From a virus (taxonomy: Duplodnaviria; Caudoviricetes), in the IMG/VR virus record IMGVR_UViG_3300020045_004057, positions 1-32,645 of that record: DNA of 32,645 nt. One strand, 5' to 3'. A program made the position numbers and the translations under genes. The notes below the pieces were generated by a model, which saw only the letters and a program-made list of their open reading frames with translations, did not search any database and had not been told where the DNA came from. Below, one piece after another: positions 4,222 to 14,350 of this stretch (its first letter is position 1; each line of letters starts with the position of its first letter).

Positions 4222-4812
4222 TCAGTCTGCATGTTTTATCATTACTGATGTATCAAGTGTTAATTCTTCTAATGCTTTACCTAGTGCCTCTCTGTACGCC
4301 TTATCGAACGATGGAACGCCCATGTAAACGGCAGTACTTGATCCATCTTTGATTATTTGCTTGCTGGTAAGGTATTTGCCAGTATTAATATCTAACAATC
4401 TAACATCACATGTTACGGTTGTTCTAAAGGTAATGGAAAAAAGTCCAGAACTGACGCGCGGAGCATCGTTAGTAATAATTATAAATAATGCATAATCACA
4501 GTTAAGTCCTTTTGATATTTTTTGTATATCCTCACGATTAACCGGCTGGGAGTAATATTGATTTACAACCATTCGGTTATCTTCTTTATATGTCCTTAAT
4601 TCCATTGATGTCATATCGAATGGTAGGACATTAAAATAACCTGCAGGAAATAAACTTTTCGCTTTTTCAGGAACTGTTTTTCTGACCGTCTCGTTATTGA
4701 CAAACGTTACCGGGGCTTCCATGAAAATTCCTATTGTGGTTTTGTCGTTGGGAGCCGCACTAGTGCAAGGCATTATTAGCATAATAAATAATACAATTAA
4801 TATTTTCTGCAT
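4222..4812 (-). CDS. Secreted moron protein with CsgG/TolB-N/LpoB-like alpha/beta fold
   Basis: AAGGAG RBS 8 nt before ATG 4812; signal peptide MQKILIVLFIMLIMPCTSAA; DVRLLDINTGK motif. Confidence 0.7.
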   Translation of the reverse strand: MQKILIVLFIMLIMPCTSAAPNDKTTIGIFMEAPVTFVNNETVRKTVPEKAKSLFPAGYFNVLPFDMTSMELRTYKEDNRMVVNQYYSQPVNREDIQKISKGLNCDYALFIIITNDAPRVSSGLFSITFRTTVTCDVRLLDINTGKYLTSKQIIKDGSSTAVYMGVPSFDKAYREALGKALEELTLDTSVMIKHAD

Positions 4813-4834
4813 ACAAAACACTCCTTTTTATTCC

Positions 4835-11897: not shown

Positions 11898-12176
11898 TTG
11901 GATCAAGCAACACTATCAGAGTTGTTTAATAAAATAAATGCAATTGCTGTCAATGTGGCTACTTTAACCGCAAAGTCTGAAGCTAAAGAAACTAGGTGCG
12001 ATGATCATCAAAAAAAAATGGATGATCACGACTTAAGAATCAGGGCGTTGGAATTAGTTGCATCTAGCGTGGCAGGATCAGACGTTGCTAGTCATAATTG
12101 GAGAGATACACTGATTAACGCTTTTACAATGGCGGCCACGATTGCGGCAACTGTATTTGCCATGAGGTCGGCATGA
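11898..12176 (+). CDS. XhlA/hemolysin-like membrane protein of the lysis cassette
   Basis: Coiled coil with DHDLRIRALE, then a C-terminal hydrophobic segment; first gene of the cassette. Confidence 0.6.
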   Translation: MDQATLSELFNKINAIAVNVATLTAKSEAKETRCDDHQKKMDDHDLRIRALELVASSVAGSDVASHNWRDTLINAFTMAATIAATVFAMRSA

Positions 12177-12406
12177 TGGATAAAATTAAATCAAACTTAA
12201 TAGAGATATTCGCAAGCATGTTTTTCCTATTGTTCATCTTTTGGGCAATAGGTTATTTTTTTAATGCGTTCTCTATTTGGGGTGCAAAATTTGAATTGGA
12301 ATCTTGTTGGGGCGGCTTTGCTGCCCTCTCAGGGTCGGGGACATTAGCGGCAGTGAAATATATCTACGACTCAATTTATAATTCAAATAAGGGGGAAAAA
12401 CCATGA
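12173..12406 (+). CDS. Holin
   Basis: 77 aa, two hydrophobic segments, charged C-tail (DSIYNSNKGEKP); upstream of the endolysin. Confidence 0.7.
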   Translation: MMDKIKSNLIEIFASMFFLLFIFWAIGYFFNAFSIWGAKFELESCWGGFAALSGSGTLAAVKYIYDSIYNSNKGEKP

Positions 12407-12513
12407 GCGGAAACGCGCCACCAAAAGGCTATGAATGGATTTTAATTATATTGATGGGTATTTACTACACAGTAAAAAATATGGTTATTAAATTATTTGG
12501 AGGTAGATCGTAA
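12403..12513 (+). CDS. 36-aa single-TM peptide (not in ORF track)
   Basis: AAGGGGG RBS; ATGA and TAATG overlaps on both sides; MSGNAPPKGYEWILIILMGIYYTVKNMVIKLFGGRS. Confidence 0.6.
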   Translation: MSGNAPPKGYEWILIILMGIYYTVKNMVIKLFGGRS

Positions 12514-13043
12514 TGAAATCATGTATTAATGGCGGACATTGCCCAGGAAAAGACTCAGGCGCAGTAGGTCCAACTGGTCTACAAGAAGCGGACGTAACCA
12601 GCGAGATCATGCAAAAGGTAATGTATTACTTGCAACAGGCGGGGTATTATAACGTGCTCATGGTCCAAGAGAATGAGCTCTATCAAATAACTAATGCCAG
12701 TAATGCGTTCGGTGCTGATGTCTTTGTAAGTATCCATTGCAATGGCGTTGAAAACCGATCTGCCCACGGCACTGAAACATTTTGTTATCGATTCGGCGGC
12801 GATTCGGAGCGATTAGCAAATTGTATCCAAAATCAGATTATCGCATCGATGGGCCTTGGTGATCGCGGAATCAAAGAGGGTAATTTTGCTGTGCTCAGGG
12901 ATACCGACTGTCCAGCAGTATTGGTGGAACTGGCGTTTATCAGTAACGTGGAAGAAGAAGCCATGCTAGCTGATCCAGTAATGCAAGATAAATTCGCGGC
13001 GGCAATTGCTCGAGGGATTACGGATTATCATAATGGCATCTAA
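12513..13043 (+). CDS. Endolysin, N-acetylmuramoyl-L-alanine amidase (Amidase_3), catalytic domain only
   Basis: GH..D.GA, LQE, FVSIHCN, GTETF, PAVLVELAFISN zinc/catalytic motifs. Confidence 0.93.
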   Translation: MKSCINGGHCPGKDSGAVGPTGLQEADVTSEIMQKVMYYLQQAGYYNVLMVQENELYQITNASNAFGADVFVSIHCNGVENRSAHGTETFCYRFGGDSERLANCIQNQIIASMGLGDRGIKEGNFAVLRDTDCPAVLVELAFISNVEEEAMLADPVMQDKFAAAIARGITDYHNGI

Positions 13044-13185
13044 CCTGGTCGAAAATCACTTGCAAGGCATCGTAGACAAAGATAAAAATCACCACATGTC
13101 AAAACGTCCTGGTGATAAATTAATTATCGATGGCGTTATGGGCGGGTGGCATGCCGAGATCGCTAAAAAGAAGAAAGAGGTATAA
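13033..13185 (+). CDS. 50-aa hypothetical protein (not in ORF track)
   Basis: ATG 13033 overlapping the amidase end; MASNLVENHLQGIVDKDKNHHMSKRPGDKLIIDGVMGGWHAEIAKKKKEV fills the gap. Confidence 0.45.
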   Translation: MASNLVENHLQGIVDKDKNHHMSKRPGDKLIIDGVMGGWHAEIAKKKKEV

Positions 13186-13188
13186 ATA

Positions 13189-13629
13189 ATGCTTGATAAA
13201 GCAAAGGAGTTTTTAGTTAATGGGAAAAAGAATATTATCATTGCTGTTATTGTGCTTATTGTTGGTATTGCCTGTTGGTTTATGTTCAGCGGGGGAATAC
13301 CAACTGACGGAGGAGCAATTAACCAAGTTCGAGCAGAACTTGAATCAGCTAGAACAGAACTTGATGTTGCAAACGGAAAGCTCGCAGAAAGCAACGCAAT
13401 TGCTGATGATCTCAGACGAACGAACAATGATATTAGAGCAGAAGTTACAGAGCTCTCAAGAGAGAATAGTGAAGCTAGAGAACTTGTTAGTTCGATCAGA
13501 CAAACAAATAGAGAACTTACAGAACAAATTAATAGAGGCTCAGACCTCAATAGTGAAAACCTCAAACTCGTTAGAGAAAGCCAACGAGGATTTAAAACTG
13601 TACGAGAAACAAGTAAAGTCAGAAATTAG
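13189..13629 (+). CDS. Inner-membrane-spanin-like protein (N-terminal TM plus coiled coil)
   Basis: GAGG RBS; IIIAVIVLIVGIACWFMF TM, Gly linker, long heptad coiled coil; downstream of the endolysin. Confidence 0.65.
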   Translation: MLDKAKEFLVNGKKNIIIAVIVLIVGIACWFMFSGGIPTDGGAINQVRAELESARTELDVANGKLAESNAIADDLRRTNNDIRAEVTELSRENSEARELVSSIRQTNRELTEQINRGSDLNSENLKLVRESQRGFKTVRETSKVRN

Positions 13630-13690
13630 AAAACTTACCTGGCAGCGCAATTTACTGATAATCGGCCTGGGATACATGGTGACAAAATGA
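13220..13690 (+). CDS. Overlapping (+1 frame) secreted coiled-coil protein, putative second spanin component
   Basis: Own AAGGAG RBS 13204-13209; signal peptide MGKRILSLLLLCLLLVLPVGLCSA; coiled coil; hydrophobic C-tail; ATGA-coupled to the next gene. Confidence 0.65.
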   Translation: MGKRILSLLLLCLLLVLPVGLCSAGEYQLTEEQLTKFEQNLNQLEQNLMLQTESSQKATQLLMISDERTMILEQKLQSSQERIVKLENLLVRSDKQIENLQNKLIEAQTSIVKTSNSLEKANEDLKLYEKQVKSEIRKLTWQRNLLIIGLGYMVTK

Positions 13691-13956
13691 TTATTAATGG
13701 CATTGAAACAACCGTCACAGGTGCAATCTCAGAGCAAGAACTAACGATCTATCTCAACCGATTACAGGCTAAACAAAAGTTTAAAATCATCAAGGCCGAC
13801 ATTGTTGTTGATGGTGAGTTTATCGATGTTAATTATAGTTTTGGTCCAATACCATTTGACCGCATACGCCGTATAACTGGATATCTTGTCGGCACTACTG
13901 ATCGATTTTGTGATAGCAAACGGGCGGAGGAACATGATCGCGTTAAGCACGGATAA
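13687..13956 (+). CDS. Stand-alone class III ribonucleotide reductase (NrdD) C-terminal glycyl-radical domain protein
   Basis: RIRRITGYL glycyl-radical loop followed by F..SKRAEEHDRVKH, the typical NrdD C-terminus; only 89 aa. Confidence 0.8.
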   Translation: MIINGIETTVTGAISEQELTIYLNRLQAKQKFKIIKADIVVDGEFIDVNYSFGPIPFDRIRRITGYLVGTTDRFCDSKRAEEHDRVKHG

Positions 13957-13960
13957 AGTT

Positions 13961-14005
13961 AAAGCCACTATCGAGCGTAATTGCTTGGTAGTGGCTTTTT
14001 TATTT
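13961..14005 (+). terminator. Strong terminator ending the late/lysis operon
   Basis: AAAGCCACTATCGAGCG-TAAT-TGCTTGGTAGTGGCTTT followed by a T-tract. Confidence 0.85.
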
Positions 14006-14306: not shown

Positions 14307-14350
14307 AAAAGCCCGTCAGTCCTTAATTGGATTGGCGGGCTTTTTTATTT
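14307..14350 (+). terminator. Rho-independent (probably bidirectional) terminator
   Basis: AAAA-GCCCGTCAGTCC-TTAATT-GGATTGGCGGGC-TTTTTT. Confidence 0.85.

What the first reader, a model, noticed from the sequence alone, without database searches (positions are those of the whole stretch)
13189..13690. Nearly fully nested coiled-coil gene pair: candidate new two-component spanin for diderm Firmicutes
Seen: two genes overlap by 410 nt in the +1 frame, each with its own RBS, just downstream of the endolysin. The same DNA encodes a hydrophobic N-terminus and a long coiled coil in both frames. ORF1 has a TM anchor, Gly linker and coiled coil (i-spanin architecture; its VGIAC fits only a relaxed lipobox). 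ORF2 has a signal peptide ending CSA|G with no canonical lipobox, a coiled coil of about 110 aa, and a hydrophobic tail (WQRNLLIIGLGYMVTK). Established: Rz/Rz1 spanins are often +1 nested, but Rz1 is a short Pro-rich outer-membrane lipoprotein sorted by Lol; from my recollection, Negativicutes have an outer membrane but no recognisable Lol pathway. Inference: a lipoprotein-independent spanin whose second subunit anchors in the outer membrane by its C-tail and zips with ORF1, SNARE-like, to fuse the membranes.
Basis: partly seen in the sequence, partly recalled or inferred. Interest (0 to 1): 0.82.

Follow-up and report, generated by a model that had tools for sequence, protein, structure and literature searches.

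The report
Lipoprotein-free spanin of Negativicutes phages
Viruses of Negativicutes, two-membraned gut and soil bacteria that lack the usual route for sending lipid-anchored proteins to their outer membrane, keep two rod-shaped proteins written in the same DNA next to their cell-wall-cutting enzyme, and these likely act as a new kind of membrane-fusing clamp that would open the outer membrane so the virus can escape.

Summary
Observation confirmed and extended. ORF1 (13189-13629) and ORF2 (13220-13690, +1 frame, 410 nt overlap) follow an Amidase_3 endolysin. Both frames are under selection: the ORF1 frame is open in all 91 loci with an ORF2 profile hit (69 distinct), where about 8 stops are expected; both frames keep a heptad pattern and length changes come in 7-residue steps. 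The pair follows five unrelated endolysin families (55 of 67 viral loci). ORF2 matches 143 of 401 Negativicutes genomes but only 1 of 315 LpxC-negative Bacillota genomes. Neither protein keeps a lipobox, so it fails the o-spanin definition. New here: some ORF2 relatives replace the short hydrophobic tail with beta-strands ending in an outer-membrane-protein-type aromatic motif. Related prophages lacking the pair carry one gene in its place, with an N-terminal membrane anchor and a homologous beta tail. Best reading (0.7): a lipoprotein-independent two-component spanin, with a single-chain counterpart. Binding has only weak predicted support; localisation and fusion are untested. No description found in the literature searches listed.

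The parts
13189..13629 (+). ORF1, 146 aa: basic N-terminus, 24-residue uncharged anchor, Gly/Pro linker, coiled coil of about 110 aa with a basic C-terminal tip; i-spanin-like subunit (inferred)
   Evidence: weak Rz-like PHROG hits (phrog_89 E 2e-5; 15 of 76 family members hit phrog_89 at E<=1e-3); family alignment
13220..13690 (+). ORF2, 156 aa, +1 frame inside ORF1: signal peptide (SPase I type by pattern), acidic Y-x-I/L-T-E-x-x-L tip, coiled coil of about 115 aa, QRN motif and 11-residue uncharged tail; proposed outer-membrane subunit (inferred)
   Evidence: no curated Pfam match and no PHROG match below E 1e-3; beta-tail variants
13177..13181 (+). SD-like GAGGT before ORF1
   Evidence: sequence
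13204..13209 (+). SD-like AAGGAG before ORF2, inside the ORF1 coding sequence
   Evidence: sequence
12513..13043 (+). Endolysin, N-acetylmuramoyl-L-alanine amidase (Amidase_3), 176 aa
   Evidence: Pfam E 2.1e-45, phrog_435 E 4e-53
11898..12513 (+). Three small hydrophobic ORFs (92, 77 and 36 aa) before the endolysin; holin candidates (inferred, no holin family hit)
   Evidence: the 77-aa ORF hits phrog_28789 of unknown function, as does a gene before the endolysin in L003

Best explanation
The nested pair is most likely a two-component spanin that works without a lipoprotein: ORF1 is predicted to sit in the inner membrane by its N-terminal helix, ORF2 is predicted to be exported and to hold the outer membrane by its C-terminal tail, and once the endolysin removes the wall their coiled coils would zip together and fuse the two membranes. 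Shown: both genes are selected as proline-free heptad helices of matched length, sit in the lysis cassette, are almost confined to Negativicutes and keep no lipobox. Inferred: each helix (family median 95 aa, about 14 nm at a recalled 0.15 nm per residue) is too short to cross a 24 nm periplasm alone, but the two tip to tip can. The basic ORF1 tip would meet the acidic ORF2 tip, and an antiparallel zipper would bring the ORF1 anchor next to the ORF2 anchor. The shared DNA forces every heptad indel onto both helices, which keeps them in register. The anchor comes as a short hydrophobic helix (most members; either pre-inserted or thrown into the outer membrane like a fusion peptide) or as about four beta-strands likely inserted by BamA as part of an oligomeric barrel.
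For: Dual coding: the ORF1 frame is open over at least 80% of the ORF2 match in 91 of 91 hit loci of 94 examined (69 distinct), while the third frame holds 7-27 stops; 8.4 stops expected on average. Also open in 51 of 51 family-level loci, 20 of 20 and 73 of 73 (threshold 78%, some are fragments). In 56 measurable pairs, heptad periodicity beats stop-free recodings of the partner gene in 51 (ORF1) and 52 (ORF2), and Pro is below expectation in 56 of 56 in both frames. The motif-to-motif distance was 60, 67, 74 or 81 aa in all 35 measurable of 67 representatives. Context: the nearest upstream gene of 110 aa or more is a peptidoglycan hydrolase in 55 of 67 viral loci (2 just under cut-off), from five unrelated Pfam families; no canonical-lipobox ORF in the window by my pattern scan. 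Range: 143 of 401 Negativicutes-class genomes against 1 of 315 LpxC-negative Bacillota genomes; the window's capsid has 80-82% identical homologues in 2 of 101 genomes of that class. No lipoprotein: canonical lipobox in 6 of 67 ORF1 and 1 of 67 ORF2; LolA over cut-off in 0 of 151 genomes, agreeing with PMC5007114, PMC10665443 and PMC13018214. Topology: uncharged run of 17 or more in 58 of 66 ORF1 anchors and 0 of 66 ORF2 tails. Beta-tail variants keep Gly, Trp and a C-terminal or near-terminal Phe in 19 of 19 aligned sequences; AlphaFold2 gives one helix (10-79) plus four strands (strand pLDDT about 56-72). A single-chain gene with an N-terminal anchor and a homologous beta tail (hhalign probability 94.8, E 5.5e-8) stands after the endolysin-position gene in two prophages that share the window's capsid and lack the pair. 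Charge profiles favour antiparallel pairing in 47 of 56. Complex prediction gave weak support: score 0.34 against best control 0.00, runs agreeing in at least 86% of contacts, partner pLDDT at least 80. The mark was reached by 116 of 157 solved complexes and 2 of 215 mismatches, but at 0.60 or under by only 18 of the 157 and by both mismatches.
Against: No experiment exists. The window's own ORF2 has the helical tail, for which no route to the outer membrane is known to me; outer-membrane anchoring is carried over from the beta variants. One clear family member lies in G521, where LpxC, LpxB and Omp85 were not found; it sits on a 4.2 kb phage-like contig of uncertain binning. In 12 of 67 viral loci the nearest large upstream gene is not a recognised hydrolase (four are tail-like, one a restriction enzyme). 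The Rz-like PHROG hits are weak and may reflect only anchor plus coiled coil. The basic ORF1 tip is not more basic than the overlap forces (15 of 56), so only the acidic stretches are independent charge evidence, and the loci are related. Fold searches gave nothing specific. I inspected only about 50 of the more than 200 matches behind the 143-genome tally; weak ones may include EnvC-like proteins. PMC13018214 reports a predicted outer-membrane lipoprotein (SonB) in diderm Firmicutes, so a lipoprotein route is not excluded.
Confidence: 0.7

Rival explanations
1. Outer-membrane breach without fusion: the pair bridges the envelope or delivers ORF2, whose basic-hydrophobic tail (or an oligomeric beta-barrel) permeabilises or tears the outer membrane, as a disruptin-like or pore-forming step.
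For: The tail is short, hydrophobic and flanked by basic residues (median net charge +3 just before it); four-stranded tails could build a barrel as oligomers. Every range and context result fits this reading too.
Against: It does not explain a membrane-anchored partner helix of locked equal length and heptad register, nor a single-chain form that carries both anchor types.
Confidence: 0.13
2. Inner-membrane lysis accessory: both proteins stay at the inner membrane (ORF2 by its C-tail) and regulate the holin, or activate or scaffold the amidase in the manner of an EnvC-type coiled coil.
For: Tails end in Lys or Arg, like a stop-transfer anchor; the ORF2 profile weakly matches the N-terminal coiled coil of M23/EnvC-like proteins; accessory inner-membrane lysis factors exist (Lcc6, bioRxiv 2024.01.23.576932 abstract).
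Against: The pair follows five unrelated endolysin folds, so a specific activator is unlikely; tails are shorter than standard TM helices (0 of 66 reach 17 uncharged residues); beta tails with an OMP-type ending replace them; the pair is almost missing from monoderm genomes, which also have holins and amidases.
Confidence: 0.09
3. Not a lysis function: a lysogenic-conversion or superinfection-exclusion membrane complex, or a virion part, placed at the end of the late operon.
For: In four loci the pair follows a tail-like gene; late-operon ends often hold morons (recalled).
Against: Position after the endolysin in 55 of 67 loci across unrelated phages; exchange with another two-anchor gene at the same place; a signal peptide is unusual for a virion part.
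Confidence: 0.05
4. Canonical Rz/Rz1: one of the two is a lipoprotein with a divergent lipobox (VGIAC in ORF1 or LCSA in ORF2) sorted by an unknown route.
For: +1 nested layout; a Cys lies near the signal end in 51 of 67 ORF2 and 38 of 67 ORF1; non-consensus lipoboxes such as AWAC work (PMC6139136).
Against: The Cys is not at a fixed place and is missing in many members (relaxed lipobox 13 of 67 ORF2, 17 of 67 ORF1); ORF2 has a second, C-terminal anchor and is Pro-free, unlike Rz1.
Confidence: 0.03

Closest known systems
Lambda Rz/Rz1 and overlapped two-component spanins (Kongari et al. 2018, PMC6139136)
   Same: Second gene in the +1 frame, extending past the first (the 'overlapped' layout); place in the lysis cassette; first protein with an N-terminal TM and periplasmic coiled coil; weak PHROG Rz-like hits.
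   Different: The second protein is not a lipoprotein, has no proline-rich region, is as long as the first, is one long heptad helix and carries a C-terminal anchor; both starts lie within a few nucleotides in most relatives.
T1 gp11 unimolecular spanin
   Same: The single-chain relative found here also has an anchor at each end and stands in the lysis cassette where the pair would be.
   Different: [quoted passage not shown]
Veillonella parvula MlaD and OmpM (PMC10665443 section 8; PMC13018214 passages)
   Same: Host envelope proteins that reach the outer membrane with a long helix plus a C-terminal beta-barrel where Proteobacteria use lipoproteins.
   Different: They have 10- or 16-stranded barrels in one chain and act in lipid transport or tethering; no sequence relationship was tested or found.
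Trimeric autotransporter anchor; SNARE and class I fusion bundles (recalled)
   Same: Helix followed by four strands ending in an aromatic residue (anchor); helix zippering between two membranes (fusogens).
   Different: No Pfam YadA-anchor match among the hits shown and no structural match; the zipper would be antiparallel.

Membership tests
Two-component spanin (Rz/Rz1 type) | i-spanin: N-terminal inner-membrane TM with a periplasmic helical domain | tested here: met
   24-residue uncharged run in the window, 17 or more in 58 of 66; heptad helix; sequence-level test only
Two-component spanin (Rz/Rz1 type) | o-spanin is an outer-membrane lipoprotein with a lipobox Cys | tested here: not met
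   Canonical lipobox in 1 of 67 ORF2, relaxed in 13 of 67; Cys absent in 16 of 67; LolA over cut-off in 0 of 151 host-class genomes
Two-component spanin (Rz/Rz1 type) | Embedded, overlapped or adjacent gene pair in or near the lysis cassette | tested here: met
Two-component spanin (Rz/Rz1 type) | Found in phages of hosts with an outer membrane | tested here: met
   143 of 401 Negativicutes-class genomes against 1 of 315 LpxC-negative genomes; the exception is unexplained
Two-component spanin (Rz/Rz1 type) | The two subunits form a complex across the periplasm | tested here: inconclusive
   Weak support, 0.34 against best control 0.00; no interface given
Two-component spanin (Rz/Rz1 type) | Required for outer-membrane disruption; fuses inner and outer membranes | not testable with these tools
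   Needs knockouts and a fusion assay
Unimolecular spanin (T1 gp11 type) | One protein with an N-terminal lipobox and a C-terminal TM, beta-rich periplasmic part | tested here: not met
   ORF2 has no conserved lipobox, is helical, and its tail is under 17 uncharged residues in 66 of 66
Trimeric autotransporter anchor / BAM substrate (beta-tail variants) | C-terminal amphipathic strands with a terminal aromatic residue | tested here: inconclusive
   Pattern and four predicted strands present (the motif definition is recalled); no family or fold match; oligomer not modelled

The most novel reading that the evidence does not exclude
Negativicutes phages, which descend from Firmicute phages and face an outer membrane without a Lol pathway, evolved their own class of spanins anchored by protein instead of lipid: a nested antiparallel coiled-coil pair whose shared DNA locks the two helix lengths, with a helical or BAM-inserted beta anchor, and a single-chain inverted form that uses the same beta anchor. 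They would be bacterial fusogens of independent origin.
Probability: 0.6. Interest if true: 0.88.

Novelty: new variant of a known kind. Interest (0 to 1): 0.8.

Why it matters
Spanins are defined and searched for by a lipobox (PMC6139136; a 2025 survey dropped o-spanin candidates without one, PMC12596118), so phages of hosts without Lol look as if they have no way through the outer membrane. This family gives a named, testable candidate for a whole class of gut, rumen and soil bacteria, in which Veillonella parvula is genetically tractable. It predicts a search rule for other Lol-less diderms: after the endolysin, an N-terminal TM plus a C-terminal beta-signal, in one gene or a nested pair. 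If it fuses membranes it is a minimal two-helix fusogen, and a clear case of an almost complete gene overlap kept because it holds two partner helices at equal length.

Tried and rejected
Single-protein scans of viral contigs with window ORF2 and with the close ORF1 alignment, and the first genome scan, found nothing; only broader alignments did. tblastn against GenBank phages: no match for ORF2, and only E 0.6 Streptomyces hits for ORF1, treated as noise. The exhaustive protein-representative search never ran, so relatives outside Bacillota were not searched sensitively. One search was meant as a monoderm control, but the genome titled Fusicatenibacter drew essentially the same class sample as Dialister and has LpxB and Omp85, so it is neither a monoderm exception nor a control. 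The 'Poribacteria' hit is on a 2.3 kb contig and falls among rows from Negativicutes-class genomes in the tree; mis-binning is likely but unproven. Seventeen weak phylum-level matches were dropped after inspection: most are 384-476 aa or longer proteins, many ending in an M23-type motif (recalled); in two of them the -1 frame was also open. Loci L011-L013 had no profile hit. Fold searches of the beta-variant model returned generic coiled coils or nothing (best Z 6.8 and 3.0). The tree of 84 coiled coils was too poorly resolved to count origins of the beta tails. Pfam gave no curated match for beta variants. The ESM Atlas gave unnamed Bacillota and Uroviricota clusters only. Name look-up for the G521 contig proteins gave no organism. 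Earlier scan notes held nothing relevant. ORF1 as a lipoprotein was rejected: its Cys is invariant only among the 9 closest sequences and not in the family.

Full report
Observation. The window is a partial temperate siphovirus-type record: head, tail, lysis, integrase and replication modules in Firmicute order. ORF1 (13189-13629, 146 aa) and ORF2 (13220-13690, 156 aa) overlap by 410 nt with ORF2 in the +1 frame, 145 nt after an Amidase_3 endolysin. Each has an SD-like motif in this genome. Neither protein reaches a curated Pfam cut-off; ORF1 weakly matches Rz-like PHROGs (phrog_89 E 2e-5), and ORF2 matches nothing below E 1e-3.

Both frames are real. An ORF2 profile search returned 191 proteins, 120 listed. 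In fetched loci, 91 of 94 sequences (window included) had an ORF2 profile hit. In all 91 (69 distinct) the ORF1 frame was open over at least 80% of the match, while the third frame held 7-27 stops; ORF1 ends 55-136 nt before the ORF2 stop. Synonymous recoding of ORF2 predicts 8.4 stops on average in the ORF1 frame, 14.2 in the window, where 0 of 1000 recodings were stop-free. The same layout held in 51 of 51 family-level genome loci out of 68 examined, 20 of 20 mid-scoring loci and 73 of 73 hit loci out of 74 (threshold 78%, fragments included). Openness is not the whole signal. Against recodings forced to be stop-free, the heptad pattern was in the top 5% in 51 of 56 measurable pairs for ORF1 and 52 of 56 for ORF2, and proline was below expectation in 56 of 56 for both (in the window itself ORF2 was at the 6% level). 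The spacing between two ORF2 motifs was 60, 67, 74 or 81 residues in all 35 of 67 representatives where both could be found. In 48 of 67 the two starts, as picked by my script, lie -2 or +4 nt apart, so one ribosome-binding site can serve both.

Context and range. The nearest upstream gene of at least 110 aa was a peptidoglycan hydrolase in 55 of 67 viral loci: Amidase_2, Amidase_3, GH25, glucosaminidase or peptidase M15 (one further locus had no upstream sequence). In the other 12 it was tail-like (4), a restriction enzyme (1) or unassigned. A pattern scan found no canonical-lipobox ORF in the window, which is incomplete at both ends. Of 15 named genome hits, 13 are titled Negativicutes; the one titled Fusicatenibacter has LpxB and Omp85 and draws the Negativicutes class sample, and one is a 2.3 kb contig in a Poribacteria bin. 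The profile matched 143 of 401 genomes of that class (about 50 matches inspected). In 401 genomes across the phylum, 86 had LpxC and 20 matched the profile. On inspection five were true members: four LpxC-positive (one is the search centre) and one, G521, without LpxC, LpxB or Omp85 hits, on a 4.2 kb phage-like contig. The family is thus a Negativicutes trait rather than one of all diderm Firmicutes, with one open exception. The window's capsid has 80-82% identical homologues in 2 of 101 Negativicutes-class genomes, which supports a host in that class.

Not a lipoprotein system. A canonical lipobox occurs in 6 of 67 ORF1 and 1 of 67 ORF2 sequences. LolA reached the cut-off in 0 of 151 genomes of the class, while the control rang in E. 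coli. Passages in PMC5007114, PMC10665443 and PMC13018214 report no Lol pathway in Negativicutes; the last also describes a predicted outer-membrane lipoprotein, SonB, so another route may exist.

The anchor of ORF2. The common tail has an uncharged run of 8-16 residues (median 13; none of 66 reaches 17), against 15-26 for the ORF1 anchor; it is a poor standard inner-membrane helix. In three groups of relatives the tail is replaced by beta-strand sequence. In group A, 19 aligned sequences keep Gly, Trp and a C-terminal or near-terminal Phe, ending for example in GYKFKF, GWQINF or GLQYRF, the alternating ending I recall as the signature of outer-membrane beta-barrel proteins. AlphaFold2 models group A as one helix plus four strands (mean pLDDT 79.8, strands about 56-72; from a single sequence, 64.8). 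Fold searches were uninformative and the tree could not count origins.

A single-chain counterpart. The two prophages that share the window's capsid have no hit to the ORF1 or ORF2 profiles in the 19-20 kb fetched. After the holin-like and endolysin-position genes they carry one gene of 206-207 aa: N-terminal uncharged run, short coiled coil, and beta-strands ending KIGLRYTF. In G103 the preceding gene is an Amidase_3; in G059 it has no Pfam hit. It has weak Rz-like hits (phrog_8821 E 1.4e-4), and its tail is homologous to ORF2 beta-tail group B (probability 94.8, E 5.5e-8). It matched 20 of 126 class genomes. In 28 loci, 27 lack a canonical lipobox and none holds the pair within the 1.5-3 kb flanks; the upstream gene was a Pfam peptidoglycan hydrolase in 12 of the 24 that had one. 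So one anchor module is used either on the second subunit of the pair or at the end of a chain that also has the inner-membrane-type anchor, as two-component and unimolecular spanins alternate in Proteobacteria.

Mechanism. Shown: selection on two matched helices, lysis-cassette position, host range, no lipobox. Inferred: ORF1 is N-in in the inner membrane; ORF2 is exported by signal peptidase I cleavage and holds the outer membrane by its C-terminus. Median periplasmic lengths are 95 and 95 residues, about 14 nm each, against a periplasm of 24.2 nm in V. parvula (PMC10665443 section 8); neither spans alone, both together can. Net charge per fifth runs -0.7, -1.5, -1.4, -1.6, +1.8 along ORF1 and -3.0, -0.5, +0.2, +0.1, +2.8 along ORF2, and antiparallel pairing scores better in 47 of 56. 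Only the acidic stretches exceed what the overlap forces (56 of 56), not the basic ORF1 tip (15 of 56). An antiparallel zipper would bring the two anchors together after wall removal. Complex prediction gave weak support: 0.34 against a best control of 0.00, contacts agreeing at 86% or more, partner pLDDT at least 80; the mark was reached by 116 of 157 solved complexes and 2 of 215 mismatches, at 0.60 or under by only 18 of the 157 and both mismatches; no interface was returned.

Comparison and novelty. It works like an overlapped two-component spanin but is not a member by the defining test, since the second subunit is not a lipoprotein (definitions from PMC6139136: abstract and passages; 'Firmicutes' and 'Selenomonas' do not occur in its main text; supplements not read). 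A 2025 survey filtered o-spanins by lipobox and does not mention Negativicutes (PMC12596118, passages). The comparative study of Negativicutes prophages has no occurrence of 'spanin' (bioRxiv 606087, passages; supplements closed). Searches (listings and abstract starts only) showed no description of this pair; the library lacks most subscription papers. Also read: PMC11784454 (passages) and bioRxiv 2024.01.23.576932 (abstract and section 8). Verdict: a new variant of a known kind, interest 0.8; spanin function 0.7, untested.

Noticed in passing
L257:15825-16448 (+), L258:1221-1841 (-), L259-L286: Single-chain gene family in Negativicutes prophage lysis cassettes: N-terminal membrane anchor, short coiled coil, C-terminal beta-strands with an OMP-type ending; matched 20 of 126 class genomes. 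Candidate inverted, lipoprotein-free unimolecular spanin; deserves its own study.
   Followed up: partly
window 13687-13956 (+): 89-aa ORF whose start overlaps the ORF2 stop; its C-terminal 32 residues match the C-terminal end of anaerobic ribonucleotide reductase NrdD (Pfam E 1e-5, below cut-off; phrog_487 E 2e-4). A stand-alone NrdD-tail protein of unknown role.
   Followed up: no
window 13961-14005 and 14311-14350: Two hairpin-plus-T-run stretches seen by eye after the lysis cassette, likely intrinsic terminators; not scanned with a tool.
   Followed up: no
window 13033-13185 (+): Possible 50-aa ORF between endolysin and ORF1, overlapping the endolysin stop; no family hit.
   Followed up: no
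L001:4970, L002:4925, L006, L009: ORF1 homologues appear to start at CTG four bases before the ORF2 ATG; others have only ATT or GTG candidates. Weak start codons may set the ratio of the two proteins and explain missed annotation.
   Followed up: no
L040, L042, L043, L065, L087, L089 (gene upstream of the pair, about 190 aa); L257:15235-15813: Genes in the endolysin position with no Pfam or PHROG match; possible unrecognised endolysin families.
   Followed up: no
L104 / G002: Genome titled Fusicatenibacter saccharivorans has LpxB and Omp85 and draws the same class sample as Dialister; the title is probably wrong.
   Followed up: partly
L162 (G521:C153:1-296): Clear copy of the pair at a contig end in a genome without LpxC, LpxB or Omp85 hits; mis-binned phage contig or a real monoderm exception.
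   Followed up: partly
window 4222-4821 (-): 199-aa gene against the direction of the tail operon with a signal-peptide-like start and no PHROG hit; likely moron.
   Followed up: no
L186, L190, L208, L217, L177: ORF2 copies with a truncated, extended or frameshifted C-terminal tail; decayed prophages or assembly errors.
   Followed up: no
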